Position numbers and translations under genes: made by a program. 64,000 bases of DNA, taken from NCBI GenBank assembly GCA_045546615.1, contig JAZQDD010000028.1:5626-69625 (forward strand), in the 5' to 3' direction. The notes under the pieces were generated by a model that made no database searches, was not told the origin of the DNA, and saw only the letters and a program-made list of their open reading frames with translations. The stretch is from Eubacteriales bacterium. Its GTDB lineage: Bacteria; Bacillota; Clostridia; Oscillospirales; CAG-272. How positions within the stretch are numbered: position 1 is the first letter of the stretch; every line of letters starts with the position of its first letter. Shown in pieces: positions 18,612 through 49,430 of this stretch.

Positions 18612-18654
18612 AATAACGCCTTTTCGGAAAAATTTACCGAAAAGGCGTTATTTT
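18612..18654 (-). terminator. Intrinsic terminator after the lipoprotein gene
   Basis: The hairpin is aataacgccttttcgg-aaaaattta-ccgaaaaggcgttatt with a T run on the minus strand. Confidence 0.8.
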
Positions 18655-25787: not shown

Positions 25788-26876
25788 TTAGTTTTTAGGA
25801 TTATTCTTCGCAAATTCCTTCATAAAGGCAACAAGCGCCTCAACACCCTCGTAGGGCATCGCGTTATAGATGGAAGCTCTCATACCGCCGACGGAACGGT
25901 GTCCCTTGAGGTTCTTCATACCCGCCTTTGCGGCATCGGACGCAAACTTCTTGTCAAGGTCAGCATCTCCGGTAACGAACGTGACGTTCATCATCGAACG
26001 GCAATCGGGGCGAACGGGAGCGATATAGTAATCCTGCGAGTCGAGGTAATCGTAAAGCAGAGCCGCTTTTTTCTGATTCATCTCCTGCATCTTCTCAAGT
26101 CCGCCGAGGGAGAGTATCCACTCGTAAACGAGATTTGCCATATAGATGGTGTAGCAGGGGGGAGTGTTATACATTGAGCCGTTCTCCGCCATTACGTTCC
26201 AATCGAGCATGGTGGGGCATTCGGGGCGAGCCTTGCCGAGCAGGTCGCGGCGAACGATAACAAGGGTAAGTCCCGCGGGAGCCATATTCTTCTGCGCACC
26301 TGCGTAGATAACGCCGAACTTGGTTACGTCGACGGGCACGGAGATGATGCAGGAGGACATATCGGCAACAAGGGGAATGTCACCCGTGTCGGGGATATAG
26401 TTGTACTTGGTTCCGAAAATAGTGTTGTTATAGCAGATATGGACGTACGAAGCATCGGGGCGGAAGCTCTCGCGAGTGGTCGCGGGAACGTAGGAAAAAC
26501 CGTCTGCCTTGGAGGTGGCAACAAGTGCGATATCACCGTACTTTTGTGCCTCGGTATACGCCTTACCCGAAAACTGTCCCGAAACGATATAATCAGCCTT
26601 TCCGCCCTCACCGAGAAGGTTGAGGGGAACTGCTGCAAACTGCGTGGAAGCTCCGCCCTGCAAGAAAAGCACGGCGTAGTTGTCGGGAATATTCATCAGC
26701 TTGCGCAGATTTGCCTCTGCAGCAGCAATGATGGGCTCGAAATCGGGAGAACGGTGAGACATCTCCGCGACTGACATTCCGGATGTACCGTAATTCACCA
26801 TTTCGGCAGCTGCGCGCTCAAGCACGGGCAGCGGGAGCATAGAAGGGCCTGCAGAAAAATTAAATACTCTTTCCAT
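25788..26876 (-). CDS. serC: 3-phosphoserine/phosphohydroxythreonine aminotransferase
   Basis: It has FNFSAGPSMLP, FLQGGASTQF and a GAQKN PLP-Lys region. Confidence 0.95.
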   Translation of the reverse strand: MERVFNFSAGPSMLPLPVLERAAAEMVNYGTSGMSVAEMSHRSPDFEPIIAAAEANLRKLMNIPDNYAVLFLQGGASTQFAAVPLNLLGEGGKADYIVSGQFSGKAYTEAQKYGDIALVATSKADGFSYVPATTRESFRPDASYVHICYNNTIFGTKYNYIPDTGDIPLVADMSSCIISVPVDVTKFGVIYAGAQKNMAPAGLTLVIVRRDLLGKARPECPTMLDWNVMAENGSMYNTPPCYTIYMANLVYEWILSLGGLEKMQEMNQKKAALLYDYLDSQDYYIAPVRPDCRSMMNVTFVTGDADLDKKFASDAAKAGMKNLKGHRSVGGMRASIYNAMPYEGVEALVAFMKEFAKNNPKN

Positions 26877-27071
26877 TTTCGTTCTCCTTTTGGATAAAAT
26901 AATAATTAGTTTTATTATATATCAAATAGTTTAACAAGTCAATTGCTTTAAAGAAAAAACATTAACAAAAAACACTCTCGAAAAAACAATATTTTTGACT
27001 TAATGGAGTGAAGAGCAAAAATGAAAAGCATCCAAAGACAATGCAATTAAAATTATGGCACAAAAGAGAAA

Positions 27072-27104
27072 GAGCCAAGTTCTTTTCCGAACTTGGTTCT
27101 TTTC
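27072..27104 (-). terminator. Hairpin terminator downstream of the CPBP gene
   Basis: The hairpin is gagccaagttc-ttttcc-gaacttggttc with T-rich flanks on both strands. Confidence 0.55.
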
Positions 27105-27152
27105 TTAACTTATCGGCATTGCATCCGAATATTTAAATTGATCTGAATATGA

Positions 27153-27821
27153 TCACAAAACGACTGCTATAAAATTTATGATCCCATGCAAAATTATAGG
27201 ATACCATATATTTTTTGTTTTTTGATATAGAATAGAAAAACCTAAACTCATGCACATATATGGAAGCATATTAACAAGTTGGATATATGATTTCTCTATC
27301 AGTACATATCCCCATATGTGAAAAAATCCAAAAAGCAGTGCAACAGAGATATGAGACAATACAGGATTGATTTTTTCTATGCTACGGTACACCAGAAATC
27401 GAAAAAATAATTCTTCTGTGATGGGGGCAAATAAAATCGCAGCAACAGCTGTCAAAATATAATTGATCCTATTGCTACTCAAAGCTGTATCAATATTATT
27501 TTCATTAGAATTGGCAATACCCATAAGATCAATCATTATTCCGCAAAGGACGATTGCAACAAAAGTAATTATGCCGATAACCGCCATTTTCTCAAGATTT
27601 GACGGGTCAAATTTTTTAATTGAATTTATCAACAATTTGAAAAAGCAAATAAGCGAGCATATAAATATGAGTGCATAAACACCAAATGTCAGGTTGTTTG
27701 AAACAAGTTCGATGTTAATAAAGGATAGCAAATTACCTCCAAATATCTGAAGGAAGCAGAAAACAATCCCATATAAGCCACCCCATAGGTATGTTCTTTT
27801 TTCAAATGTTTCTATATACAT
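27153..27821 (-). CDS. CPBP family intramembrane glutamic endopeptidase (CAAX protease/Abi family)
   Basis: It has the motifs APITEELFFRFLVYR (EExxxR), FGFFH (FxxxH) and ILHGIINF. It is a multi-pass membrane protein, and the gene and its flanks are markedly AT-rich compared with their neighbours. Confidence 0.85.
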   Translation of the reverse strand: MYIETFEKRTYLWGGLYGIVFCFLQIFGGNLLSFINIELVSNNLTFGVYALIFICSLICFFKLLINSIKKFDPSNLEKMAVIGIITFVAIVLCGIMIDLMGIANSNENNIDTALSSNRINYILTAVAAILFAPITEELFFRFLVYRSIEKINPVLSHISVALLFGFFHIWGYVLIEKSYIQLVNMLPYMCMSLGFSILYQKTKNIWYPIILHGIINFIAVVL

Positions 27822-27890
27822 GAATATTACCTTTTCTTATTCCTTATGTTAATAATAACTTTTATCGAATGATAAAGTATATTTCCTACT

Positions 27891-27937
27891 CAAAAGACCG
27901 CTTTTTTCATCTTTTGGAGTAAAAAAGCGGTCTTTTG
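27891..27937 (-). terminator. Intrinsic terminator after the LtaS-family gene
   Basis: The hairpin is caaaagaccgctttttt...aaaaaagcggtcttttg. Confidence 0.6.
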
Positions 27938-27990
27938 GTTTTGCTTATTTTTGTTTTATTGTTATGCGCTAAATGAAACCGCCCAAAGTA

Positions 27991-30243
27991 TTATTTTCCA
28001 AACACCTTGCCGTAATAATCGTTCTCAAGAATGTAGTTCGAGTAAGTTCTCATCTTCTTGAGCAGGTCGTTGTGGGCGGAAACGTAGCCCATAGAAACAA
28101 GCGTGTCTATCTGCTCCTGCGTATACTTGGGATTACGCTCGAGCGTCTTGGTTCTCGAATTGTAAATGCCGTACTTTGTTACCCAGTTGTTGCTGGAGCT
28201 GATTCCCGAGGAGTTCGAGCAGTTAAGGATAACAAATCCGTCAGCATCCGAGAGAATATCACGTCCCATGATAAGGCGGGAATCGTACTTCGCGCCAAAG
28301 AGGTTCAGCACGGTGGGAAGTACGTCGATAGCGGAGCAGACCTTGTCCACCTTGACGGGCTCTTTCATCGAAGCTGACCAGATAATGAGGGGCGCACGGT
28401 AAAGGTCAAAATTCAAGAAGATGTTCTCAACAGGGAGTCCGTAAAGCTCCGAAAGAGCCTCCATCGTACCCTCGTCATCATCCACCGCCTGATTTTTGTC
28501 GTTGGTCTTACCTACGATGGAGTAGGGATAGTGGTCGGGAGCCATAACGAACACGGTGTTCTCAAGCTCACCCTGACGCTCAAGCTCGGCGCAAAGCTCC
28601 TGCACCATCAGCTCTACCTCGTACTGCGATGCAACGTAGGAGATAGCTCCGTTGCTCTTGTATCCGAGGTCGAGCGATTTAACGTAGGTTTTATGCTTGC
28701 TCGCCTGCGCGTTACCCGTGTGATACGCGTGTCCGCTGACCGTCATATAGTAAAGATGGAAAGGCTTGTCGGGCGTGATATAGGAAAGGGTGTTCACCGC
28801 AAGCTCACGGTCGGATTTCGGCCAGCCGTTGGTAAATTTAACATCCCAGTTGTTAACGCCGTGCCAGCCGTAGCCGAAATTCGGATGCGACTTGTCGCGG
28901 CTGTAATAGGTGTAGGTGTGGTTGTGGAAGCCGTTTGACTTGTAGCCGAGACTTCCCATCATATTGCCAAGCACGAAGGGCATATAGTTTGACGCGCTCT
29001 TTTTAAGGCAGGACGAGCTTGCGTAGAAATTACCCGTCATCACCGCGTACTCGCCCGTCGCGGTAGAGCCGCCCCAGTTGGAGCAGTAGTAGTTTTCAAA
29101 AACGAAGCCCTCATTCTTCATCTTATAAAGAGTGGGCGTGAGCTTTTCGTTTATTGCGGCGGGCGCCCAGCCCTCGACAGTTATGCAAATGAGGTTTTTG
29201 CCCTCAAACATACCCGTATAGGCGTTTTTATTGGTAGGCTCTCGCTCGGAGAACCATTGATGCGCAGATTTCAAACTGCCGCTCGACTTCGCGATAAGAG
29301 ATTCAAAATCAATATCCATCACGTTCGGGGACGTGTCCACGGGGGGAGCGGGGGGAGCTGTAGTAACGTCGCCCGAGCTACCGTTGCCCGAGGTGCTCTC
29401 ACCCGAAACGGGCGGATTGGTAACGGGGGGAGTCGTTTCATCCTCAAAGAGATTATCCCAGCCCTTATCGGGCACGGTGACCTCCGGACCGTCGTCGGTG
29501 AAATCCGCGTCGGGCCTGCCGAAGAGAGTATACTGCGTGTCAAGCCTGAGTGCGGTGATGATACCGAAGCGGCTTGCCGCCTCCGCCATAATAAAGCCCT
29601 CGTTATAATAATACTCGTCGCCAAGGTCATCAGAATGCAAGTTTACAAAACCGATTCCCGCCCAAAAAATAACGATAGCAAGAGCCAAGCCAATGCCCCT
29701 GAACGCCCACGAGGTCATAACGGCGGGGAGATATCTCCTGCCGAAAATTATATAAAGTACAGCGGGCAAAAGCAAAAATACAAGCCAAATAATATTTTGG
29801 GCTATGCACGCCAATATCTCACGCCAGAATGCCGTAACGTCGCCCGCAACGAGCATCTGATCCCAATAGAAAAAGTCTTGAAAAAACTTGGAATACACAA
29901 GCTGAACGCAGAAATACAGACATATAACCGACAAAATACAGCTTTCAACGATGTGGTTGACCTTTTCGGAGAAGAACGAGGCTACAAGAGCCATTATCGT
30001 GCCTGCCGACACGGAAAACATGGTGATGTAAACAAAAAACGTCGATGATACCGAGCCTCCCGACGCGAGACGGAACACGATCTCAAGGAAAAACAGCGTC
30101 AGAGCCACTGCCCCTGCGTGAATAACCCCGTCTACGGTCTGTTCGCCCGCATCCTTGTCCGCTGGACGGCGGCGGACTGCACCTTTTTGATACTCGTTTT
30201 CGCGAGAATTTGGATTTTTGTTCATTTTCTTCCTTTTCCGCAT
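27991..30243 (-). CDS. LTA synthase (LtaS)/sulfatase family membrane protein
   Basis: The N-terminus has multiple TM helices. A Thr/Pro-rich linker follows, then an extracellular alkaline-phosphatase-superfamily domain (NWGGSTATGEYAVMTG, APDHYPY). The start is uncertain: ATG at 30243 or the MNKNP ATG 18 nt downstream. Confidence 0.8.
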   Translation of the reverse strand: MRKRKKMNKNPNSRENEYQKGAVRRRPADKDAGEQTVDGVIHAGAVALTLFFLEIVFRLASGGSVSSTFFVYITMFSVSAGTIMALVASFFSEKVNHIVESCILSVICLYFCVQLVYSKFFQDFFYWDQMLVAGDVTAFWREILACIAQNIIWLVFLLLPAVLYIIFGRRYLPAVMTSWAFRGIGLALAIVIFWAGIGFVNLHSDDLGDEYYYNEGFIMAEAASRFGIITALRLDTQYTLFGRPDADFTDDGPEVTVPDKGWDNLFEDETTPPVTNPPVSGESTSGNGSSGDVTTAPPAPPVDTSPNVMDIDFESLIAKSSGSLKSAHQWFSEREPTNKNAYTGMFEGKNLICITVEGWAPAAINEKLTPTLYKMKNEGFVFENYYCSNWGGSTATGEYAVMTGNFYASSSCLKKSASNYMPFVLGNMMGSLGYKSNGFHNHTYTYYSRDKSHPNFGYGWHGVNNWDVKFTNGWPKSDRELAVNTLSYITPDKPFHLYYMTVSGHAYHTGNAQASKHKTYVKSLDLGYKSNGAISYVASQYEVELMVQELCAELERQGELENTVFVMAPDHYPYSIVGKTNDKNQAVDDDEGTMEALSELYGLPVENIFLNFDLYRAPLIIWSASMKEPVKVDKVCSAIDVLPTVLNLFGAKYDSRLIMGRDILSDADGFVILNCSNSSGISSSNNWVTKYGIYNSRTKTLERNPKYTQEQIDTLVSMGYVSAHNDLLKKMRTYSNYILENDYYGKVFGK

Positions 30244-35588: not shown

Positions 35589-36005
35589 TTACGATTCGCC
35601 GCCGTCCTTTGCGGGCGGACGGAAATCTATTCTATATACGTTTTCGCTGTTTATCTTTATTTTCGGTATTCTGATGGGCGGAGTGCCTGCCGCCGCGGTG
35701 ACGGTGTTGCACAGCGCCGCCATATAGGGGTACATCTCCCCAAAGGTGGCAACGTGTATATCCTCGCGCGACATATCCTCGGGCACGGCAAAAACGCCCG
35801 TTTGCACAAGCTTTAGCTTGAATTTGTCGGGATTCTCCTTATCTTCCGCCATGACCGAAAGCTCGGCGTGCGCGATTCCCGCGGCGGGATAGCGGAGCTG
35901 ATGATTGTATCTGAATGACAGCGTGATACGGCTTCCCGGAGCCATTCGGTTGACGAAGGTGACCTCGTCAGCCTTTATCAGCTTCATTTCAAGTGCGCCC
36001 GCCAT
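35589..36005 (-). CDS. SecB-like chaperone-fold protein (tentative)
   Basis: The segment KFKLKLVQTGVFAVPEDMSREDIHVATFGEMYPYMAALCNTVTAAAGTPPIRIP parallels E. coli SecB FLCEVQQGGIFSIAG...[27 protein letters not shown]. The start at 36005 overlaps the stop of the upstream gene (TGATG). Alternative starts are 36029 and 35987. Confidence 0.45.
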   Translation of the reverse strand: MAGALEMKLIKADEVTFVNRMAPGSRITLSFRYNHQLRYPAAGIAHAELSVMAEDKENPDKFKLKLVQTGVFAVPEDMSREDIHVATFGEMYPYMAALCNTVTAAAGTPPIRIPKIKINSENVYRIDFRPPAKDGGES

Positions 36006-36352
36006 CAGATGCAAACGATGAAGAGCCACGCGAGAAGTGCCTGAACAAGGCTCATATCGCTATACGCTCCGCGCAAAAACGAAAGCACGACCGACGCGGC
36101 GGAAGCAACGAAAATTATCACGCCGCACAAATGACAGACCGCAGGCTTGACCTTGGCAAGCCCCATAATACCCGCGATGAACATCAAAACGCCCACCGCC
36201 GTCGATATAAGCTCGTAAACGGGCATGGAAAAATCAAGCGAAACTATGAAATCCCACGCCGCCAGCACCGAGCTGACACCAAGCAATATATAAATTATGC
36301 TGATAACTATCCTCGTAGTCTCTATTTTTGAAGCAATGCTCTTTTTAGCCAT
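36005..36352 (-). CDS. Small 3-TM membrane protein, function unknown
   Basis: It has hydrophobic helices. I prefer the ATG at 36352 (RBS ggagga, 7 nt upstream) over 36367. Confidence 0.6.
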   Translation of the reverse strand: MAKKSIASKIETTRIVISIIYILLGVSSVLAAWDFIVSLDFSMPVYELISTAVGVLMFIAGIMGLAKVKPAVCHLCGVIIFVASAASVVLSFLRGAYSDMSLVQALLAWLFIVCI

Positions 36353-36425
36353 ATAAACGTCCTCCATGCTTACCGCAATATTTTCCTATTTTATATTTTA
36401 CATCAAATAAAACTCTTTGTCAAGT

Positions 36426-36481: not shown

Positions 36482-37405
36482 TCAGTCGTTTTCACGTTTT
36501 CTTCCAAACACAGCGCAAAGAGCGATGGCGGATGGGATAACGGCAAGAGCCGTTACCGAGCCGCATCCGCCCTCGGCAGCCGCGGTAGTGCTTTCCGCAG
36601 TAGTCTCGGGTGCTGTGGTCTGGGGGATTGTAGTTTCGGGGACGGTGGTGACCTCCGCCTTCTTGATAAACGTCTCCTCCATCCACGACGCTATGAAGGG
36701 AGTGAGTATATCATAGCCCTTTGCGTTGGGATGAACGTTTATATCATCTCTGAAATGCGTGCCTGTTTTGAGCCTTTTGGCAAGTGTTTCGTTGTGGTAA
36801 AGGTCCGCATAGGGAACGTCCCACTTTTCGAGGATCTGTATTGTCAGGTCAACGTAAGGCTCCATTGCCTCAAGCTTCGAGGGAGCATTCTTGAACTTGA
36901 AATTGACAATAAATCCTACCGCCGCGTCGGGATACATACCCTTGGTATAATAAAGCAGATTTTCAAGTCCGCCCCCAAAAGTGTTCTTATCAAACGCAGA
37001 CGGCTCAAATCCCTCGGTCATTACGCCGATGGGGAGATCCTGCCACGCATCGTTTGTGCCGCCGTGAAGGATTATTATATCGGCATCCTTGTGCTTTGCG
37101 CGTGCCGAACGTACCTGCGAAAGAATATTCTTTGCGGTCTGCTGGGACACGAATGCACCGGGCACACCGAGATTTTCACAAGCTCTGAAATTATATCTCT
37201 CGGCAATTCTTCCGGGCCAGCCCTTGTTATCCACGGTCGCTCTCGTTATCGAGTCGCCGCAAAAGAGTACCTTGAGTCCGTCAAAGCTCTCAAAGGTCTT
37301 TGCCGACTCGGTATTGTCCTCGGCGCTTGCGCCAAGGGTAAGAGAGGATATCAACATCACAACTGCGACAAGCGCATTGAGCAGTCTTTTTATTGCAATT
37401 TTCAT
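36482..37405 (-). CDS. Secreted SGNH/GDSL hydrolase with a Thr-rich linker and a GGCGS-TM-RKREND C-terminal tail
   Basis: It has a signal peptide ([28 protein letters not shown]), SGNH block I (VLFCGDSIT), block III (GGTND) and a C-terminal ...[35 protein letters not shown]. Its ATG overlaps the infB stop (ATGA at 37402-37405). Confidence 0.8.
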
Positions 37406-40038
37406 ACCTGCTTTACCTCTTCCATAACGAACGCCTCAAGAATATCGCCCGTCTTAAGGTCGTTGAATTTTTCAAGTCCGATACCGCACTCGTAGCCCTG
37501 TGCTACCTCGCGGACGTCGTCCTTGAAGCGGCGCAGAGATGCTATCTTATCCTCGTATACCACAATACCGTCGCGAACTACGCGGATCTGCGCGGTGCGG
37601 GTGATCTTGCCGTCCTGCACGTAAGAGCCTGCGATAAAGCCGACGTGGGGAACGTGAATAAGCTGACGAACCTCGGCGTGACCGAGCAGTGCTTCCTTGA
37701 ACTTGGGAGCAAGCATACCCTTCATTGCCGCCGTGACCTCGTCGATACAATCGTAGATTACGCGGTAAGTGCGCACGTCAACGCCCTGACGCTCGGCAGA
37801 CTCAAGCGCGCTCTTGTCGGGGCGCACGTTGAAGCCGACGATAATGGCGTTGGATGCGGCGGCGAACATAACATCGCCCTCGGTAATACCGCCTGCGGCG
37901 GCGTGGATAACGCGAACGTGAACTTCCTCGTTGGAGATCTTCTCCAGCGACTGCTTAACTGCCTCGGCAGAGCCGCCCACGTCAGCCTTAACGATAATGT
38001 TAAGCTCCTTAACACCGTCCTTGATCTGCGCAAAGAGGTCATTGAGGTTAGTTCGGGCATTCGCCTTGAAGGTATCCTCCTTCGCCTTTTCGCGGCGCTG
38101 ATCCGCAAGAGTACGCGCCATTCTCTCGTCAACAACGGCGTTAAACTCGTCACCCGACGCAGGAACGTCGGAAAGACCTGTGATCTCAACGGGCATTGAG
38201 GGGGGAGCGACCTTTACGATTCGTCCCGCGTGGTCTGTCATAGCGCGGACGCGTCCTACCGAAGTACCCGCGATAACGATGTCGCCCGAACGGAGAGTAC
38301 CGTTCTGCACAAGCACCGTAGCAACGGGGCCGCGTCCCTTATCCAGCTTTGCCTCGATAACGATACCCTTGGCGCGGCGGTTGGGATTAGCCTTGTATTC
38401 CTTGACCTCGGCAATGAGAAGCACGCTCTCAAGCAGGTCGTCTATACCCTCGTGCTTGAGTGCGGAAACGGGAACACACATAACGTCGCCGCCCCATTCC
38501 TCGGGAACGAGGTCGTATTTGGTAAGCTCTTGCTTAATATTGTCGGGGTTTGCGCCGAGCTTATCCATCTTGTTGATAGCAACGATTATCTCAACACCTG
38601 CCGCCTTGGCATGGTTTATAGCCTCAACGGTCTGCGGCATGATTCCGTCGTCTGCGGCGACGACGAGAATGGCAATATCCGTAGCCTGCGCACCTCTTGC
38701 ACGCATTGCGGTAAACGCCTCGTGTCCGGGGGTGTCAAGGAAGGTGATGTCCTTGTCATTGATGCGCACACGGTAAGCACCGATGTGCTGGGTGATACCG
38801 CCTGCCTCGCCTGCGGTAACGTGGGTGTTTCTGATAGCGTCAAGAAGTGAGGTCTTACCGTGGTCAACGTGTCCCATTACGCAAACGACGGGCGCACGCT
38901 CAACGAGCTTATCATCGCTGTCCTCGCCCTCGTCAAAGAGACGCTCCTCGATGCTGACGACAACTTCCTTCGTAACTACCGCGCCAAGCTCGTCGGCTAT
39001 GAGATACGCGGTATCAAAATCTATGGTCTGGTTAACGGTGACCATCATTCCCATAAGCATAAGGCGCTTGACGACCTCTGCCGCCGTAACCTTGATGCGG
39101 GACGCGAACTCGCCAACCGTGATCTCCTCGGGGATCTCGGCGTGGACGGGCTGCTTCTTTATAGGAGCGGCGGGTGCGGGAACAAAGCCGCCCTTGCCGC
39201 CGCGCTTGCCGTTCTGCTGTGCGCCCTTGCGGTCATTGCGGTTATCCTTGCCGCCCTTTTTCTGATCATTCTTTGAGAACTGTGCGCCCTTGCCCTGCTG
39301 CTGGGACTTGTTGTTCTGTCCCTGCGGACGTGCGCCTTCCTTATCTGCGGCGGCAGCGGCAGGCTTTTTGGCAACCTTGCTGCGCGCAGAGCCGCGATTG
39401 TCTCTGTCATCGGTCACGAAATTATCGAGCTTTTCATCGTACTTGGACAGATCCACGGCATCGCCGCCTCTGGTATCTACCACGCGAGTAGCCGCCTTGG
39501 GAGTGACCGTAACGACCTCGCGCTCACCCTCGGGGCGTGCTTCTCTGACCTCAAGGCGCGTATGCTTTTGCGGCTTTTGCGCCTTTTCAGCCTTCTCCGC
39601 CTTTTTGGGCTGTTGCTCCGCCTTGGCGTTTGCGGCGTTCATTCTCTGCTCGAATCGCTCACCCGCGCTTCTGTTGATATTCTGCTGCTGTGTGGGCTTC
39701 GAGGACTTTTTCTCCTCCTTTGCGGGAGCTTTCTCCTGCGGCGGAGGCGTGGGGGCAGACTTCTCCTTTGTCTCCTCTGCCACGGGCTGTGGCTTTTCCG
39801 CCTTCGCCTTCTTGCGTGTCGAGGGGATGCCGGTAACTCCGTCGATATAGTCCTCTATATTCGATACCTGATTTGCCGTTGTGAGCTTTTCCCACATAAA
39901 ATCAAGCTCGAAGCTTGTAAGAGTCTTTTGTGTTTTTGCATCGATCCCGCCCTCCGCAAAAAGATCGGAGAGATCCTTTGCCTTGAGAGAAAGATCCTTT
40001 GCCAACTGGTTTACCTTAAACTGTGAGCTTACTGCCAT
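37402..40038 (-). CDS. infB: Translation initiation factor IF-2
   Basis: The GTPase domain has [24 protein letters not shown] and NKMD. The N-terminal region is low-complexity and Lys/Ala/Gln-rich. Confidence 0.97.
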
Positions 40039-40067
40039 ATTCCTTGTTATCCTCCTTGGGATACTAT

Positions 40068-40427
40068 TTACATATTTTCAAGCTCCGTCTGCGCCGCCTT
40101 TGCAAATGCTTTTACAAATGAAGCGTCAGTAAGAGCCACGGCGGCGCAAGTGCCGCCCCTTCCTATCGCCGCGCCAAGCTCTGCTGAAGCGACGGGAAGA
40201 AATATAATTTGTTTTTCGTAAAATGCGCAACGGTCACAAAGCCGTTTTTTCGTATTATCCGAGGCATCCGACGCCACGGCAACGAGAAGAGCCTTTCGCT
40301 CCTTGAGAGCATCGCAAACTATCTGCGTACCCGACACAAGCCGCCTTGCCCTTCTTGCAAGCCCGAGGACTCCAAGAACTTTGCGTTCCGACTCCTGCGT
40401 CAGCGCTAACTGCCGAGTATCCATCAT
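40068..40427 (-). CDS. L7Ae/L30e/S12e/Gadd45 family RNA-binding protein (YlxQ-like)
   Basis: It has [39 protein letters not shown] and occupies the expected position between ylxR and infB. Confidence 0.8.
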
Positions 40428-40708
40428 TCGCTTGCCTCAAGCTCCGCCTCGATAGCGTCAAAGACCTCCTCGGATATCGCAACACCGAGTGTAGATGCGA
40501 TCCTGCCGTTCTTTCTCGCCTTTTTAAGACAAGAGGTCTTTTTGCATATATATGCGCCCCTGCCCGATTTTTTGCCCGTTATATCAAGGCTTATCTCTCC
40601 CTCGGGGGAGCGAACCACTCTGATTAGCGAGGGCTTTGGCAAATGCTCGTTACAGCCGAGACATTGCCTTACGGGGACGCGGCGCGCAGGTCTTTGCTCG
40701 CCTGCCAT
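40424..40708 (-). CDS. rnpM: YlxR/RnpM family protein (DUF448)
   Basis: It has RQCLGC...GRGAYIC motifs and lies downstream of nusA. Confidence 0.85.
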   Translation of the reverse strand: MAGEQRPARRVPVRQCLGCNEHLPKPSLIRVVRSPEGEISLDITGKKSGRGAYICKKTSCLKKARKNGRIASTLGVAISEEVFDAIEAELEASE

Positions 40709-40709
40709 A

Positions 40710-41735
40710 TTATTCCGCCTTTATATCGACCTTACAGCCTGTAAGGCGGGCGGCGAGACGGGCGTTCTGTCCCTCGCGTCCGATCGCGAGAGAGAGCTGG
40801 TCTGCGGCAACCGTGATCTGCGCGGTGCGCTCGTCAAGCATAACGACCTTCTTTATATCTGCGGGGGCAAGAGCCGCCGTGATGTACTCATCCATATTTT
40901 CGCTGTAACGGACGATATCTACCTTCTCGCCGCCAAGCTCCTCGAGAATGGTATTGATTCTGATTCCTCTGTTACCTATACAAGCGCCGACGGGATCAAC
41001 GTTTTCGTCGCGGGACATTACCGCGAGCTTCGTTCTTGAGCCTGCCTCACGCGCAACACCCTTGATTATTACCGTTCCGTCCGCGATCTCGGGGACTTCA
41101 AGCTCGAACATACGGCGTACAAGACCGGGATGCGCTCTTGAAATCGTAACGAGCGGACCCTTTTCCTCGCGGTTTACCTCAAGGATATATACCTTTATCT
41201 TGCCGCCGACAATGAGACGCTCACCGGGTATCTGCTCGCTGACACGGAGAAGGGCGTTTCCTGTTCCCGTGAATATAACGGCATCGCCCGTCTGGGGATC
41301 GACCTTTGAAACGGTGGCGGTAATTATCTCCTCGCGCTTCTTTTCGTAAGCGTCGCGGGCGATCTTTCTTTCCGCCTCGCGGATAGCCTGAATGATAACG
41401 GACTTTGCCGCGCCTGCGGAGAGACGGCGGAAATTCTTGGTCTTTACCTCGGTCTCAAGTATCTTGCCGACGGTCATTCGCTTGTTATGCGTTCTTGCTT
41501 CCTCAAGAGATATCTCTACCTCGGGGTTCTCAACCTCGGCAACTACCGTCTTTTGCTGATAAACGCGGACGTCTTTTTTGTTGGGATCTATCAGAACACG
41601 GACGTTGGTGTTGTTTCCGTATTCCTTTTTATACGCGGCGACAAGAGCCGCCTCGATCTTTTCAAGCATATAATCGTGGGGTATCCCCGTCTTTTTTTCC
41701 AGCTCCTCAAGAGCGGCAAAGAATTCTGAGTTCAT
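40710..41735 (-). CDS. nusA: Transcription termination/antitermination factor NusA
   Basis: It has the N-terminal domain, an S1 domain and two KH domains (PVGACIGNRGIRI, LSLAIGREGQNARLAARLTG). Confidence 0.95.
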   Translation of the reverse strand: MNSEFFAALEELEKKTGIPHDYMLEKIEAALVAAYKKEYGNNTNVRVLIDPNKKDVRVYQQKTVVAEVENPEVEISLEEARTHNKRMTVGKILETEVKTKNFRRLSAGAAKSVIIQAIREAERKIARDAYEKKREEIITATVSKVDPQTGDAVIFTGTGNALLRVSEQIPGERLIVGGKIKVYILEVNREEKGPLVTISRAHPGLVRRMFELEVPEIADGTVIIKGVAREAGSRTKLAVMSRDENVDPVGACIGNRGIRINTILEELGGEKVDIVRYSENMDEYITAALAPADIKKVVMLDERTAQITVAADQLSLAIGREGQNARLAARLTGCKVDIKAE

Positions 41736-46129: not shown

Positions 46130-47602
46130 TTAGTCCTCTTTCTTGCGAGCGATTGCTACTGCGCCAGCGGCTGCAACAGCAACGATTGCGAGAGAGATGC
46201 TGGAACCGCATCCGCCCTCTGCAGGAGCTGCAGTGGTGTTAGCGGGAGCCTTAGTGGTCTCGGGAGCCTTGGTGGTCTCGGGAGCCTTAGTAGTAGTCTC
46301 ATCAACAGTGGGAGCAGTGGTGGTCTCGCCGCCTTCAGCGGTGGTAACATCACCATCACCCTCAGCGGTGGTATCATCGCCATCCTCGGAAGGAACGGTA
46401 ACCTCAGGAGCGGGAGCAGTCTTAGCGCCCTCTACGATAGCGTCGAAAGCAGCCTGGCAAGCAACCTGGTCAAGAGCAGTGAAGCCGGTAGCACCCTCTA
46501 CGAGAGTAACAGCCTGCTCACCGATAACGTTCATACCATGGAGGTAGGAGCAATCAGTAAGAGTTACGATACCGCCGTTAGCATATCCGTTGAAGGGATC
46601 AGCGGAGGAGTAAGCAGAACCGTCAGCAGTAGCATCGTTGTCCATAACGCCCATTACTACGCAGTTGTTCATAGCGATTACTGCGCTGGAAGAGGAGAAT
46701 CTGGGGCAGATACCTGCAGAACCGTACTTGGTACCGGTCTTGTCACCGCCGGTGAGCTTCTCGCCGGTCTCGGTGTTGATGATGGGGTTCTGGTCGATAG
46801 TAGCATTGTTTGCGCAGTAGCTGAAAGTACCCTCTGCGCTGCCGTTAACCTGACCAACGATACCGCCGGCATCGTTCTGTGCAGAAACCTTACCGTTGTT
46901 AATGCAGTATCTGAAGTCAGCTACGAGACCTGCGTTAACGTTACCAACGATACCGCCGGCGTAGGAGTTGTTAGCGTAAACTTCACCATTGTTAGTAGCG
47001 TTTACGATGGTGAGGTAGCTCTTACCGGAAGCGTGACCGCAGTTACCTATGATACCGCCGGTCTGGTTTCTGGAGAACATGTTACCGTTGTTAACAACGT
47101 TGTACATGTAGATCCAGTTCTCGGAGTCAGCATAGCCGAGAATACCCGCGATGGGGGTCTGATCCTCGGGATGCTCGGTAACGTTTACGTTGTTGGTAAC
47201 ACCGGAGATCCAGATGGGCATATCAGCGGTACTACCTGCAGCAAGGCTAACAACGGGGTTTACGTAGAATACTACGTCCTTGCCCTCAGCGTCCTTTGCC
47301 TGGTTAACGGTAAAGTCCTTGATGGTTGCGCCGCCACTGATCTCTACGAAGAGAGTGGTGGAAGCAGTAATGGTGTGGTTTCCGCCATCAAAGCTTCCAT
47401 AGAAGCCCTCAACGGAAACGTCTGCGGTGGTGTCAGCAGTGAGCTTGTAGTTGCCTTCGCCGTAAGCTGCATTAGCCTTCTCAGCGAATTCTGCCCAAGA
47501 TGCAACTTCTACAACGCCTTCAGCGGAAGAGAAAATGCTCATGGGAAGAGCCATTGCTGCGATCATTGCGATAGCAATGATGATGGAAAGTGTCTTTTTC
47601 AT
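46130..47602 (-). CDS. Secreted GLUG-motif repeat protein A with a Thr-rich linker and a GGCGS-TM-RKKED tail
   Basis: I prefer the ATG at 47602 (MKKTLSIIIAIAMIAAMALPMSIFSSAEG signal peptide). It has repeats of the type NNGxVxxxxxAGGIVGN (GLUG-like), TTKAPE repeats, and a C-terminal ...AEGGCGSSISLAIVAVAAAGAVAIARKKED. Confidence 0.8.
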   Translation of the reverse strand: MKKTLSIIIAIAMIAAMALPMSIFSSAEGVVEVASWAEFAEKANAAYGEGNYKLTADTTADVSVEGFYGSFDGGNHTITASTTLFVEISGGATIKDFTVNQAKDAEGKDVVFYVNPVVSLAAGSTADMPIWISGVTNNVNVTEHPEDQTPIAGILGYADSENWIYMYNVVNNGNMFSRNQTGGIIGNCGHASGKSYLTIVNATNNGEVYANNSYAGGIVGNVNAGLVADFRYCINNGKVSAQNDAGGIVGQVNGSAEGTFSYCANNATIDQNPIINTETGEKLTGGDKTGTKYGSAGICPRFSSSSAVIAMNNCVVMGVMDNDATADGSAYSSADPFNGYANGGIVTLTDCSYLHGMNVIGEQAVTLVEGATGFTALDQVACQAAFDAIVEGAKTAPAPEVTVPSEDGDDTTAEGDGDVTTAEGGETTTAPTVDETTTKAPETTKAPETTKAPANTTAAPAEGGCGSSISLAIVAVAAAGAVAIARKKED

Positions 47603-47879: not shown

Positions 47880-49430
47880 TCAGTCCTCTTTCTTGCGAGC
47901 GATCGCTACTGCGCCTGCGGCGAAGGTAGCAACGATTGCAAGAGAGATGCTGGAACCGCATCCGCTGTCCTTGGGAGCAGCGGTAGTGTTAGCAGGAGCT
48001 TTAGTGGTCTCGGGAGCCTTAGTGGTCTCGGGAGCCTTGGTGGTCTCAGGAGCCTTGGTGGTCACATCTGCGGTGGGAGCAGTGGTGGTCTCGCCGCCTT
48101 CAGCGGTGGTAACGTCAGCAGAAGGAGCTGTAGTTACGTCTGCAGAAGGAGCAGTAGTTACATGAGCAGTAGTTAAGTCCGCAGAGGGAGCGGTGGTCTC
48201 AACGAAAGGATCAGCCTTTGCATTTTCCTTAGCGGCAAGCATAGTGTCGATCTTGGCGTCGATAGCAACCTTATCGGCAGTGGTGAAGCCCTTGTTGGTG
48301 GTAGCGGCGATAGCCTGCTCACCGTAAACTTCCATACCGTGGAGGTATACGGAATCGGTAACGGTTACAAGACCGCCGTTAGCGTATCCGTTGAAGGGGT
48401 CGGTGGAAGCCTTTTCAGAGCCGTCAGCCGTCTTGTCACCAACGAGAGTAGCAGCTACTACGCAGTTGGAGATGGTGATGGTAGCGGTGGCAGCATTGCT
48501 TCTTGCGATGATACCGGAAGCGCCGTACTTGGTGCTGGTCTTATCAGAGCCTGCGAGCTTAGTGCCCTCGGAGTCGATTACGGGGTTGTTGGTAACAGTG
48601 CACTTTGCAACGCTGTTGGTGATGGTAATATTCGCATTAGCGTTAACGTTACCGATGATACCGCCGGCATCGTTCTCGGCAGTTACGTTACCGAAGTTGA
48701 AGCAGTAGTCAAGAGTACCCTCAAGGCTGCCGTTAACGTTACCGATGATACCGCCGCCGTAGTTCTTGGTACCGTATACTTCGCCGTAGTTTACAAGGTT
48801 AGCGGCGTGAATGTAAAGAGTGTTAGCATCGCTGTCGTGGCAAGCGTTACCGATGATACCGCCGGCCTGGTCGTCGCAACGAATGTTACCGTAGTTGGTA
48901 AGCTTGTTAAGTACGAGATAGTTATCAGAAGTGGTTCTGCCGATGATACCTGCGATGGGGTCCTGATTGAAGGACGAGGTCTCGTAGGTGTCAACGTAGT
49001 TGGTTACGTTCTCAACGGTGATGGGAAGGTCCTCGGTGCTTCCGGAAGCGAGGTCGATAACGGGGCTTCTGAGCATCTTGAACTCGGTGGGGTTACCCTC
49101 GTCGTCAGTAGCGACTGCGTTGGGGTCCTGCTTTGTGGTGAAGTTCTTGATTACCGCACCTGCACCAACGTCCATGAACATGGTGGAAGAAAGGTAAACG
49201 GTGTGACCGTTGCCGTCAAAGCTTCCGAAGAAGCCCTCTACTGCGGTGTCACAGTAAACGTCAGCGGTGAGCTTGTAGTGACCGTCGCCAAAGCTGTCAG
49301 CAACAAGGAGAACGAAATCCATCCAATCGCTGACCTCAACAACTTCTGCTGCGGATGAGAAAATGCCCATGGGAACGAGCATAGCGGCGATCATCGCGAT
49401 AGCAATGATCATAGAAAGTGTCTTTTTCAT
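47880..49430 (-). CDS. Secreted GLUG-motif repeat protein B (tandem paralog of A) with the same C-terminal tail
   Basis: I prefer the ATG at 49430 (MKKTLSMIIAIAMIAAMLVPMGIFSSAAE). It has AGGIIGN repeats, TTAPSADV and TTKAPE repeats, and a C-terminal ...KDSGCGSSISLAIVATFAAGAVAIARKKED. Confidence 0.8.
   Translation of the reverse strand: MKKTLSMIIAIAMIAAMLVPMGIFSSAAEVVEVSDWMDFVLLVADSFGDGHYKLTADVYCDTAVEGFFGSFDGNGHTVYLSSTMFMDVGAGAVIKNFTTKQDPNAVATDDEGNPTEFKMLRSPVIDLASGSTEDLPITVENVTNYVDTYETSSFNQDPIAGIIGRTTSDNYLVLNKLTNYGNIRCDDQAGGIIGNACHDSDANTLYIHAANLVNYGEVYGTKNYGGGIIGNVNGSLEGTLDYCFNFGNVTAENDAGGIIGNVNANANITITNSVAKCTVTNNPVIDSEGTKLAGSDKTSTKYGASGIIARSNAATATITISNCVVAATLVGDKTADGSEKASTDPFNGYANGGLVTVTDSVYLHGMEVYGEQAIAATTNKGFTTADKVAIDAKIDTMLAAKENAKADPFVETTAPSADLTTAHVTTAPSADVTTAPSADVTTAEGGETTTAPTADVTTKAPETTKAPETTKAPETTKAPANTTAAPKDSGCGSSISLAIVATFAAGAVAIARKKED

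What the first reader, a model, noticed from the sequence alone, without database searches (positions are those of the whole stretch)
46130..46219. Shared Cys-containing C-terminal tail (GGCGS, hydrophobic helix, RKKED) on three exported proteins: a candidate non-LPXTG sorting signal
Three proteins with N-terminal signal peptides and different catalytic or repeat bodies end in nearly the same tripartite tail. GLUG protein A ends in AEGGCGSSISLAIVAVAAAGAVAIARKKED (46130-46219). GLUG protein B ends in KDSGCGSSISLAIVATFAAGAVAIARKKED (47880-47969). The SGNH hydrolase ends in [31 protein letters not shown] (36482-36574). Each tail follows a Thr/Pro/Ala/Glu-rich linker, and none of the three has LPXTG. 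A short signature motif, a TM helix and a basic cluster at the extreme C-terminus is the architecture of substrates of dedicated sorting enzymes (sortase, exosortase, archaeosortase, rhombosortase). An invariant Cys in the signature recalls MYXO-CTERM-type domains, for which a CPBP-family intramembrane protease has been proposed as the sorting enzyme. It is inference that this tail is a recognition and cleavage site, possibly with Cys modification, in a Gram-positive organism. I cannot tell from memory whether it matches an existing model such as Firmicu-CTERM.
Basis: partly seen in the sequence, partly recalled or inferred. Interest (0 to 1): 0.8.

Follow-up and report, generated by a model that had tools for sequence, protein, structure and literature searches.

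The report
New Cys-bearing C-terminal anchor signal, Clostridia
Three exported proteins in this window end in the same short tail (Gly-Cys-Gly, a membrane helix, then KKKED), and the same tail turns up on dozens of unrelated surface enzymes of uncultured gut or rumen Clostridia yet matches no catalogued sorting signal, so it is probably an undescribed surface-anchoring signal whose processing enzyme is still unknown.

Summary
All three genes are on the minus strand. Each has a Sec signal peptide, a Thr/Ala/Pro/Glu-rich linker and a tail of G-C-G-S, about 18 hydrophobic residues and R/K-K-K/R-E-(N)-D at the stop codon.

It is not a local duplication. Profile and pattern searches recovered 63 distinct tails. 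They sit on at least eight unrelated bodies (listed in the full report), on about nine body-less mini-lipoproteins, and on contigs of 42-58% GC. The few with source names are Clostridia or Eubacteriales MAGs. G-C is invariant, G follows in 59 of 63, and the Cys-to-Lys-cluster spacing is 20-24 residues.

No NCBIfam (release 20, 2026) or Pfam model reaches its cutoff. Positive controls (TraA MYXO-CTERM, M-protein LPXTG) do. The nearest model is Synerg-CTERM at 17.1 bits against a cutoff of 22.5.

The CPBP protease in the window is a poor sorter candidate. It lies in a 32% GC islet, and its orthologues sit in bacteriocin loci of organisms whose fetched contigs carry no tails.

Best reading: a new Cys-type tripartite C-terminal sorting or anchoring signal of Gram-positive Clostridia, analogous to MYXO-CTERM. 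Lipidation, cleavage and the enzyme are inferred, not shown.

The parts
46130..47602 (-). Carrier A. A 490-aa exported GLUG-type parallel beta-helix protein made of a signal peptide, a beta-helix, a TTKAPE linker and the GCG tail.
   Evidence: Translation. AlphaFold2 pLDDT is above 85 over about residues 30-270. The best PDB match is 3N6Z. Pfam finds nothing.
47522..47602 (-). Sec-type signal peptide of A (MKKTLSIIIAIAMIAAMALPMSIFSSA).
   Evidence: Read directly from the sequence. The cleavage site is inferred.
46223..46402 (-). Disordered Thr/Pro/Ala/Glu-rich linker of A. It includes 18-bp tandem repeats at 46243-46291 that encode TTKAPE.
   Evidence: pLDDT is below 50 from residue about 402. 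Tandem repeats. Composition.
46133..46222 (-). GCG tail of A: AEGG-C-GS, then the helix SISLAIVAVAAAGAVAIA, then RKKED and the stop codon.
   Evidence: It is 92% identical to the B tail and about 96% (25 of 26, read from the sequence) to that of orthologue P0002, while the whole proteins are 56% and 76% identical.
47880..49430 (-). Carrier B. A 516-aa tandem paralogue of A with the same architecture.
   Evidence: Its body is 46% identical to that of A.
47883..47972 (-). GCG tail of B: KDSG-C-GS, then the helix SISLAIVATFAAGAVAIA, then RKKED and the stop codon.
36482..37405 (-). Carrier S. A 307-aa exported SGNH/GDSL hydrolase with a signal peptide, catalytic domain, TTxPE linker and GCG tail. 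Its start overlaps the infB stop by 4 nt.
   Evidence: PF13472 at E 3e-17. Orthologue P0005 keeps the tail.
36485..36577 (-). GCG tail of the SGNH hydrolase: AEGG-C-GS, then the helix [18 protein letters not shown], then RKREND and the stop codon.
   Evidence: The Cys-to-Arg spacing of 21 is the same as in A and B. The body is 14% identical to A, while the tail is 41% identical with the same motif.

Best explanation
The tail is a real, modular, widely used C-terminal sorting or anchoring domain of uncultured Clostridia. I call it GCG-CTERM here.

Shown or read directly from sequence:
- The carriers are exported through N-terminal Sec signal peptides.
- The C-terminal helix and the Lys-rich cluster (positive inside) hold them in the membrane as type I proteins.
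- A long, disordered and possibly glycosylated T/P/A/E stalk lifts the enzyme or adhesin domain off the membrane.
- The invariant Gly-Cys-Gly lies on the outer face, with no spacer before the helix.

- The Cys thiol is modified, most plausibly with a lipid by an Lgt-like or other transferase.
- A dedicated membrane-embedded endopeptidase encoded elsewhere in the genome then removes the helix and the KKKED end.
- The protein is left lipid-anchored at its C-terminus. This would be the mirror image of an N-terminal lipoprotein.

The sorting enzyme is not identified. The CPBP gene in the window is probably not it.
For: Reality and breadth:
- There are 63 distinct tails. The bodies include GLUG-type beta-helix, SGNH/GDSL, GDPD, Metallophos, NAGPA, Cthe_2159-like and an unknown 883-aa protein. 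There are also about nine mini-lipoproteins.
- The contigs carrying tails range from 42 to 58% GC. The named sources are all Clostridia or Eubacteriales MAGs.

Constraint:
- G(-1) and C are present in 63 of 63 tails and G(+1) in 59 of 63. Position -3 is K or E in 52 of 63. The Cys-to-Lys-cluster distance is 20-24 residues, while the helix sequence varies freely.
- Tail codons of window A against L001 show 8 synonymous and 1 non-synonymous change within C...KED.
- The tail is far more conserved than the body: 92% against 46% for A versus B.
- Some tails double the Cys, as GCGGCGS or GCGVC (P0021, P0023, P0031). MYXO-CTERM does the same with GCGC.

Functional equivalence to lipid anchoring:
- In the L005 operon and in L004, exported hydrolases carry either an N-terminal lipobox or a Sec signal peptide plus a GCG tail.

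Membrane-embedded enzyme:
[quoted passage not shown] Haft notes this for signals cut by membrane-embedded enzymes, in contrast to LPXTG.

Precedent:
- MrtX cleaves MYXO-CTERM, dependent on the Cys, with proposed prior lipidation, possibly by Lgt (PMC11980579; bioRxiv 10.1101/2023.06.07.544157).

Weak sequence affinity to that class:
- Synerg-CTERM scores 17.1 against a cutoff of 22.5. The C-terminal ends of several MYXO-CTERM-anchored family models give 12-17 bits.
Against: - There is no direct evidence of cleavage or lipidation. A helix plus a basic cluster is sufficient as a permanent anchor.
- No candidate sorter was found. No membrane protease recurs within 10 kb of tail genes in six independent loci. 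The only CPBP nearby looks unrelated to the system.
- Position -3 is charged (K or E), not Leu, so the motif is not a canonical Lgt lipobox.
- The invariance of the Cys is partly built into the ascertainment, because profiles and patterns containing GCG were used to find the tails.
- Whole-genome co-occurrence could not be tested with the tools at hand.
Confidence: 0.5

Rival explanations
1. The tail is a plain, unprocessed C-terminal transmembrane anchor. It is a mobile 'anchor module' spread by domain shuffling and gene conversion. The Gly-Cys-Gly has a structural or minor role at the membrane interface, for example helix capping, metal or thiol chemistry, or reversible acylation, and the helix is never removed.
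For: - A helix with a positive-inside Lys cluster is enough for anchoring.
- No sorter was identified in any neighbourhood.
- The A and B tails within the window are kept alike by concerted evolution at the DNA level. This shows that the module can spread without any need for an enzyme.
Against: - G-C is strictly conserved and G(+1) nearly so across 63 tails whose helices are otherwise free to vary, and the spacing to the Lys cluster is fixed.
- The Cys motif is duplicated in some tails.
- The tail is used in alternation with lipoboxes in the same operons.
- The mini-lipoproteins would be pointless loops if both ends were permanent anchors.
- All four known Cys-bearing tripartite tails are linked to processing enzymes.
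Confidence: 0.3
2. The tail is a divergent sortase signal. A specialised sortase recognises the GGCGS region in place of LPXTG and links the protein to peptidoglycan.
For: - The organisms are Clostridia.
- The helix plus K/R-K-K-E-D end resembles LPXTG-type anchors. This gives weak hits to Rumino_NPXTG (up to 16.4 bits against a cutoff of 23.5, in 16 of 64 tails), LPXTG_anchor (13.4 against 15.9) and Pfam Gram_pos_anchor (12.9 against 20).
Against: - Those hits cover only the helix and basic part and are all below cutoff.
- There is no Pro or Thr in the motif and no LPXTG-like pentapeptide anywhere in the three proteins.
- The motif abuts the helix without the spacer typical of sortase signals.
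- A genuine LPXTG tail scores 29.4 bits in the same scan.
Confidence: 0.06
3. The CPBP (Rce1-like) intramembrane protease encoded in the window at 27153-27821(-) is the cognate sorting enzyme, a myxosortase analogue, for these tails.
For: - It matches PF02517 at E 6e-19 and has intact EExxxR, FxxxH and HxxxN motifs.
- It lies 8.7 kb from the SGNH gene.
- It has weak similarity to MrtJ and MrtS (27 and 26.5 bits).
- CPBP enzymes sort all four known Cys-type signals.
Against: - It scores below every Mrt model cutoff: 27 against 75, 26.5 against 130, and Mrt_core 17 against 100.
- It sits in a sharp 32% GC islet within DNA of about 52% GC.
- Its orthologues (47-89% identity) are on contigs of 26-40% GC. 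At 61% identity they sit between a LytTR two-component system, small ORFs and a C39-peptidase ABC exporter with LcnD, which is a class II bacteriocin locus.
- There are no GCG tails in about 91 kb of those eight loci, about 65 kb of it non-redundant.
- PF02517 genes average more than three per genome, so proximity means little.
Confidence: 0.06
4. The shared tail is only a by-product of a recent local duplication and has no wider significance.
For: A and B are tandem paralogues whose 3' ends are about 90% identical at the nucleotide level.
Against: - The SGNH hydrolase is unrelated to A and B (14% identity) and lies 9 kb away.
- Dozens of unrelated carriers occur in other organisms.
Confidence: 0.01

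Closest known systems
MYXO-CTERM (TIGR03901) with myxosortase MrtX, MrtC or MrtP, in Myxococcota
   Same: - Both are tripartite C-terminal domains on Sec-exported proteins.
- Both have a Gly-flanked invariant Cys, sometimes doubled (GCGC there, GCG or GCGGCG here), then a TM helix and a basic cluster.
- Both occur on many unrelated surface enzymes per organism and are preceded by a disordered linker.
- The sorter is not encoded next to its substrates.
   Different: - No TIGR03901.2 hit appeared for any of the 25 tails scanned individually at E up to 10. The TraA control tail reaches 21 bits against a cutoff of 20.
- The end here is Lys-rich and finishes in Glu-Asp, not Arg-rich.
- The host is Clostridia, presumably with no outer membrane and no T2SS step.
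- No Mrt-type enzyme was identified.
Synerg-CTERM (TIGR04564) with MrtS, in Synergistota
   Same: - Both have a small Gly/Ser cluster with a single invariant Cys that abuts the TM helix.
- It is the best-scoring CTERM model for any tail (P0015, 17.1 bits, E 0.004).
   Different: - The score is below the cutoff of 22.5, and only one of the scanned tails hits it.
- Synerg-CTERM ends its motif at the Cys and has an invariant Pro in a Leu-rich helix.
- Here G-S/G follows the Cys, and the helix is rich in Ala, Val, Ile and Gly with no fixed Pro.
CGP-CTERM (TIGR04288) with archaeomyxosortase MrtA, in Thermococcales
   Same: - Both occur in a cell without an outer membrane.
- Both have a Thr/Ser-rich linker before the tail.
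- In both, Cys-Gly starts the domain and abuts the helix.
   Different: - The CGP motif has an invariant Pro, whereas here it is C-G-S/G.
- The CGP domain is 20 residues long, against 26-27 from the Cys here.
- CGP-CTERM is archaeal, and no HMM hit was seen.
Bacterial N-terminal lipoprotein signal (lipobox, Lgt/LspA)
   Same: - Both have a Cys flanked by small residues at the outer membrane face, next to a single TM helix that could be removed.
- The GCG tail and the lipobox alternate on sister enzymes within one operon.
   Different: - The topology is inverted: the Cys lies before the helix, at the C-terminus.
- Position -3 is Lys or Glu, not Leu.
- LspA-type cleavage cannot apply.
LPXTG and NPXTG sortase signals (TIGR01167, PF00746, NF033846)
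   Same: - Both occur in Gram-positive hosts.
- Both have a helix followed by a K/R-K-K-E-D/N type end, which gives weak partial HMM matches.
   Different: - The tails have no LPXTG-like pentapeptide, no spacer and an invariant Cys.
- All scores are below cutoff.
NF058595 'invert_tail', the lipo-invert putative C-terminal anchoring domain
   Same: The concept is similar: a lipoprotein-like anchoring element at a C-terminus.
   Different: - The model has 113 positions and a cutoff of 37.
- It matches only the N-terminal lipoprotein signal peptides of two mini-lipoproteins, at 14-15 bits, and never the GCG tail.
- Its order is helix then Cys. The order here is Cys then helix.

Membership tests
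Generic class: tripartite C-terminal protein-sorting domain with invariant Cys (Haft 2023) | Located at the extreme C-terminus. A short signature with an invariant Cys, then a hydrophobic TM segment, then a basic cluster. | tested here: met
   All 63 of 63 tails have this layout. From the Cys to the end is 24-32 residues in 62 of 63.
Generic class: tripartite C-terminal protein-sorting domain with invariant Cys (Haft 2023) | Found on multiple unrelated proteins that carry N-terminal signal peptides, several per genome. | tested here: met
   There are 3 carriers in the 64-kb window and 3 of 8 genes in L005. At least 8 body types were found, and all full-length carriers have a signal peptide.
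Generic class: tripartite C-terminal protein-sorting domain with invariant Cys (Haft 2023) | A cognate processing enzyme (a CPBP/myxosortase-family subgroup) co-occurs with the signal across genomes. | not testable with these tools
Neighbourhoods show no recurrent protease. The in-window CPBP is disfavoured.
Generic class: tripartite C-terminal protein-sorting domain with invariant Cys (Haft 2023) | The tail is actually cleaved or the Cys is modified. | not testable with these tools
   This needs proteomics or genetics.
MYXO-CTERM (TIGR03901.2) | HMM score at or above the cutoff of 20 bits. | tested here: not met
   No hit at E up to 10 for the 25 individually scanned tails. The model is not among the 25 families listed, of 101 matched, for the 64 tails. 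The TraA control scores 21 bits.
MYXO-CTERM (TIGR03901.2) | Restricted to Myxococcota, with an Arg-rich cluster and T2SS-dependent surface delivery. | tested here: not met
   The named sources are Clostridia or Eubacteriales MAGs. The end is Lys-rich and terminates in an acidic pair.
Synerg-CTERM (TIGR04564) | HMM score at or above 22.5 bits, and an invariant Pro in a Leu-rich TM segment. | tested here: not met
   The best score is 17.1 bits, for P0015 only. There is no conserved Pro and the helix is not Leu-rich.
CGP-CTERM (TIGR04288) | An invariant Cys-Gly-Pro, a domain of about 20 residues, and restriction to Thermococcales. | tested here: not met
   Position +2 is S, G or A in 62 of 63 tails and never P. 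No HMM hit was seen.
JDVT-CTERM (NF033191) with MrtJ | A near-invariant Asp-Pro before a Leu-rich helix, and a single target encoded next to MrtJ. | tested here: not met
   There is no DP motif and no adjacent CPBP at any tail locus. The window CPBP scores 27 against a cutoff of 75 for MrtJ.
LPXTG or NPXTG sortase signal (TIGR01167, PF00746, NF033846) | An LPXTG-like pentapeptide, and an HMM score above the cutoffs of 15.9, 20 and 23.5 bits. | tested here: not met
   There is no such motif in A, B or S. The best scores are 13.4, 12.9 and 16.4 bits. The M-protein control tail scores 29.4.
lipo-invert C-terminal anchoring domain (NF058595) | HMM score at or above 37 bits over the C-terminal region. 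| tested here: not met
   It scores 14.2-15.4 bits, and only on N-terminal signal peptides (residues 4-38) of P0018 and P0036.
Firmicu-CTERM (TIGR04145) | HMM match. | tested here: inconclusive
   The model never appeared in any scan at E up to 10. I could not run a positive control for this model or confirm that it is in the library copy.
GLUG-motif beta-helix (body of A and B) | Pfam GLUG (PF07581) HMM match, or the IgA1-protease-type beta-helix fold. | tested here: inconclusive
   Pfam finds no families. The fold is a parallel beta-helix closest to 3N6Z and 6XJA, with a TM-score of only about 0.4-0.54.

The most novel reading that the evidence does not exclude
Monoderm Clostridia have a hitherto unrecognised C-terminal lipid-anchoring pathway that is functionally GPI-like. 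The extracytoplasmic Cys of the GCG tail is lipidated. A dedicated membrane protease then removes the helix. That protease would be a new CPBP/myxosortase subfamily or a different enzyme class.

The pathway would serve as a general route for displaying hydrolases and adhesins in gut and rumen fibre-degrading bacteria. It would also produce doubly lipidated mini-peptides from the body-less lipoprotein-plus-tail genes.
Probability: 0.4. Interest if true: 0.8.

Novelty: new variant of a known kind. Interest (0 to 1): 0.62.

Why it matters
Cys-bearing tripartite C-terminal sorting signals are so far described only for Myxococcota, some Proteobacteria, Synergistota and Thermococcales. None is described for Gram-positive bacteria, where sortase/LPXTG and N-terminal lipoproteins are the textbook anchors.

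If it holds up, a third, widely used anchor type in uncultured gut and rumen Clostridia would have several consequences:

- **Annotation.** NCBI currently labels such proteins only by their catalytic domain. Gene callers often truncate or mis-strand them.
- **Surface proteome.** Predictions of which hydrolases are surface-displayed in fibre-degrading communities would change.
- **Mechanism.** It would offer a monoderm model, free of T2SS complications, for the open question of which enzyme lipidates the Cys in MYXO-CTERM-type signals.
- **Application.** It would supply a compact tag for surface display in anaerobic Firmicutes.

Tried and rejected
1. The in-window CPBP as sorter was rejected as unsupported. 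It lies in a low-GC islet, its orthologues are in bacteriocin loci, there are no tails near those orthologues, and its Mrt scores are below cutoff.

2. NF058595 'lipo-invert' looked at first as if it removed the novelty. Its hits fall on N-terminal lipoprotein signal peptides and not on the tail, and they are far below cutoff.

3. A neighbourhood search for a recurrent membrane protease around tail genes found only generic U32 and ABC ATPase matches. It covered six independent loci by all-vs-all BLASTP.

4. A tail-only search of the 5.8-billion-protein word-indexed database with a single sequence gave only one hit. The profile version returned only proteins of 36-79 aa. This appears to be a bias of the candidate step combined with truncated gene calls, so counts from it are lower bounds.

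5. Exact-sequence look-ups of A and the SGNH hydrolase failed. For A, I had included one extra codon upstream of the ATG.

6. The unannotated 8-TM protein at 9367-10467(+) and the 4-TM protein at 36005-36367(-), just downstream of the SGNH gene, have no Pfam or NCBIfam match and no obvious catalytic motifs. I did not pursue them.

7. Five literature searches found no description of a Cys-type C-terminal signal in Clostridia or Firmicutes. The library lacks most subscription-journal papers.

8. The single genome-collection scan returned only one related MAG, so no genome-wide count or phylogenetic profile was possible.
Full report
**Observation.** The three genes are on the minus strand.

- Protein A is 46130-47602, 490 aa.
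- Protein B is 47880-49430, 516 aa.
- The SGNH/GDSL hydrolase is 36482-37405, 307 aa.

All three proteins begin with a Sec-type signal peptide, have a Thr/Ala/Pro/Glu-rich linker before the tail, and lack any LPXTG-like pentapeptide. The Cys lies 21 residues before the first Arg in all three.

Only these 3 of 58 gene-sized ORFs in the window match the pattern, and residue shuffling predicts 0.002. The SGNH assignment is solid (PF13472, E 3e-17). 'GLUG' is not recovered by Pfam. However, an AlphaFold2 model of A has pLDDT above 85 for residues about 30-270 and is a parallel beta-helix. Its closest PDB matches are the Bacteroides 'putative IgA1 protease' 3N6Z (E 6.6e-5) and the streptococcal IgA1 proteases. 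The linker and tail are predicted disordered.

**Is it only a local duplication?** A and B are tandem paralogues. Their bodies are 46% identical, yet their last 200 nt are about 90% identical, including shared 18-bp repeats that encode TTKAPE. A and B are therefore not independent, and concerted evolution of their 3' ends is likely. The SGNH hydrolase is unrelated to them (14% identity) and its tail is 41% identical to A's, retaining the motif and spacing. The tail is also common elsewhere:

- A species-level MAG, 'Eubacteriales bacterium' JAZNOD010000161, keeps both A and B with the tail.
- A profile of four tails was run against 1.84 billion representative proteins. It found an A orthologue, a 43%-identical paralogue, an SGNH orthologue, a 796-aa metallophosphoesterase and several fragments.
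- A back-translated pattern scan of metagenomes found an 863-aa Cthe_2159-type protein, and its upstream neighbour also carries the tail.
- In locus L005, three of eight adjacent genes carry it: a GDPD phosphodiesterase, an unknown 883-aa protein and the metallophosphoesterase.
- A 13-tail profile against the 5.8-billion-protein database added 50 more sequences.
- One of those belongs to an 812-codon NAGPA phosphodiester glycosidase ORF that the public gene call had placed on the wrong strand.

Contigs with tails range from 42 to 58% GC. The few with source names are all 'Clostridia bacterium' MAGs.

**Anatomy of the domain.** The following comes from 63 non-identical tails.

| Position relative to Cys | Residues |
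|---|---|
| -6 to -4 | A, P or E |
| -3 | K or E in 52 of 63 |
| -2 | G, K or S |
| -1 | G in 63 of 63 |
| 0 | C in 63 of 63 |
| +1 | G in 59 of 63 |
| +2 | S or G in 57 of 63 |
| +3 | V, S or M |
| +4 | I or V |

The hydrophobic segment begins right after these positions, with no spacer. The Lys/Arg cluster starts 20-24 residues after the Cys in 59 of 63 tails. The usual end is KKKED; ED is the final pair in 31 of 63. The helix sequence itself varies widely between lineages.

Some tails double the Cys, as GCGGCGS or GCGVC. Between window A and a 42% GC metagenome contig, the C...KED stretch differs by eight synonymous codons and one non-synonymous codon. That indicates selection on the peptide. 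One caveat applies: because GCG was part of the search profiles, the invariance of the Cys is partly built into the ascertainment. Even so, hits down to 24 bits all retained it.

**Comparison with known models.** All tails were scanned against NCBIfam release 20 (June 2026), and some against Pfam. None reaches a curated cutoff. The best CTERM-type scores are as follows.

| Model | Best score (bits) | Cutoff (bits) | Note |
|---|---|---|---|
| Synerg-CTERM | 17.1 | 22.5 | one tail only |
| Rumino_NPXTG | 16.4 | 23.5 | helix and basic part only |
| LPXTG_anchor | 13.4 | 15.9 | |
| Ends of MYXO-CTERM-anchored family models | 12-17 | far higher | cutoff 150 for NF045522 |

A recent model, NF058595 'lipo-invert putative C-terminal anchoring domain', appeared in the summary. 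On inspection it matches the N-terminal lipoprotein signal peptides of two mini-proteins (residues 4-38) at 14-15 bits against a cutoff of 37, and not the GCG tail.

Positive controls show that the scan can detect short tails. The TraA MYXO-CTERM fragment quoted in PMC11980579 reaches 21 bits against a cutoff of 20. An M-protein LPXTG tail, written from memory, reaches 29.4 against 15.9. NCBI names one full-length carrier simply 'metallophosphoesterase'. Five full-text searches found no description of such a signal in Clostridia or Firmicutes.

**Mechanism: what is shown and what is inferred.** Three things can be read from the sequence. The proteins are exported by Sec signal peptides. The C-terminal helix with a positive-inside cluster gives type I topology. 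The invariant Cys therefore lies on the extracytoplasmic face, directly at the helix start.

The rest is inferred by analogy. Haft's analysis links every known Cys-bearing tripartite tail (MYXO-, JDVT-, Synerg- and CGP-CTERM) to a cognate CPBP-family intramembrane protease. It also notes that motifs abutting the helix are typical of membrane-embedded processing enzymes. Experiments show that MrtX cleaves MYXO-CTERM, that the cleavage depends on conserved residues, and that processing even occurs in E. coli. Lgt was proposed there as the lipidating enzyme.

Two observations here fit a lipid-anchor function:

- In L005 and L004, sister exo-enzymes of one operon carry either an N-terminal lipobox or a Sec signal peptide plus a GCG tail.
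- About nine complete 65-76-aa genes consist only of a lipoprotein signal peptide, a linker and a GCG tail.

One observation argues against simple Lgt recognition: the -3 position is charged rather than Leu.

**The sorter.** The window does encode a CPBP, at 27153-27821(-). It matches PF02517 at E 6e-19 and has EELFFR, FGFFH and HGIIN motifs. Four results argue against it as the sorter:

- It scores far below all Mrt cutoffs.
- It lies in a 32% GC islet in DNA of about 52% GC.
- Its orthologues lie on contigs of 26-40% GC. At 61% identity they are embedded in a LytTR/histidine-kinase, small-ORF, C39-ABC-exporter and LcnD locus. That is the classical setting of bacteriocin-immunity CPBPs, a comparison I draw from general knowledge of class II bacteriocin loci.
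- None of the eight CPBP-anchored loci, about 91 kb in all and about 65 kb non-redundant, contains a tail.

No membrane protease recurs near tail genes in six independent loci. That is what one expects of a housekeeping sorter with many substrates, but it leaves the enzyme unidentified. Whole-genome co-occurrence, the decisive computation, could not be run with the capped tools.

**Verdict.** I put the existence of a modular, conserved, widely distributed and so far uncatalogued Cys-bearing C-terminal tail in Clostridia at about 0.95. I put its being a processed sorting signal (Cys modification plus helix removal), and not a permanent anchor, at about 0.5. The permanent-anchor rival stands at about 0.3, and the sortase-variant and in-window-CPBP ideas at about 0.06 each. 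I classify the tail as a new variant of a known kind: the Cys-type tripartite C-terminal sorting signals, here in a different envelope context, with a distinct signature and an unknown enzyme.

Noticed in passing
window 26700-28200 (CPBP gene 27153-27821, minus strand): A sharp low-GC islet (32% against about 52%) holds a single Rce1-like/CPBP gene next to an LtaS-like sulfatase-domain membrane protein (27991-30243). Orthologues of the CPBP sit in class II bacteriocin-type loci of low-GC organisms. It is probably an acquired orphan immunity-type gene.
   Followed up: yes
P0001, P0018, P0028, P0030, P0032, P0036, P0037, P0045, P0053 (L001 255-467 for P0001): These are complete 62-76-aa genes made only of a lipoprotein signal peptide (a canonical L-A/V-A/G-C lipobox), a T/P/A/E linker and the GCG tail. 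They have no body domain and potentially carry an anchor at both ends. Their function is unknown.
   Followed up: partly
L005 1-12391; L004 1-4011: These are operons of exported hydrolases (GDPD, GH65, GDSL, Metallophos, unknowns). The members carry either an N-terminal lipobox or a Sec signal peptide plus a GCG tail, as if the two were interchangeable anchors.
   Followed up: partly
L009 9944-10225: An in-frame TAA separates a 620-aa Listeria-Bacteroides-repeat protein from the linker-plus-tail ORF. That ORF has its own AGGAGA-N3-GTG start but no signal peptide. It could be a pseudogene, a sequencing error or a split gene.
   Followed up: no
L008 7793-10231 (+): The tail belongs to an 812-codon ORF with a signal peptide and a NAGPA domain. 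The public annotation instead calls a 631-aa gene on the opposite strand and a 76-aa fragment. Gene callers appear to mishandle these low-complexity linker genes, so database counts of carriers are underestimates.
   Followed up: partly
window 46130-46330 and 47880-48080; tandem repeats 46243-46291 and 47995-48063: The 3' ends of paralogues A and B (linker repeats plus tail) are about 90% identical in DNA, while the bodies are 46% identical in protein. A keeps a TAA stop and B a TGA stop in both the window and the related MAG. This points to concerted evolution of the linker-tail module.
   Followed up: partly
window 36482-41735 (minus strand): The SGNH hydrolase start codon overlaps the infB stop by 4 nt. 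The gene is therefore the last member of a nusA, ylxR-like, L7Ae-like and infB operon, which is an unusual place for a surface esterase.
   Followed up: no
window 18653-20212 (minus strand): A 519-aa predicted lipoprotein with no Pfam or NCBIfam family. Its N-terminal lipobox reads I-F-G-G-C-G, the same G-G-C-G core as the C-terminal tails.
   Followed up: no
window 9367-10467 (+) and 36005-36367 (-): Two multi-pass membrane proteins have no family match: one of 366 aa and about 8 TM segments downstream of a U32 peptidase-like gene, and one of 120 aa and about 4 TM segments just downstream of the SGNH gene. No catalytic motifs were recognised.
   Followed up: partly
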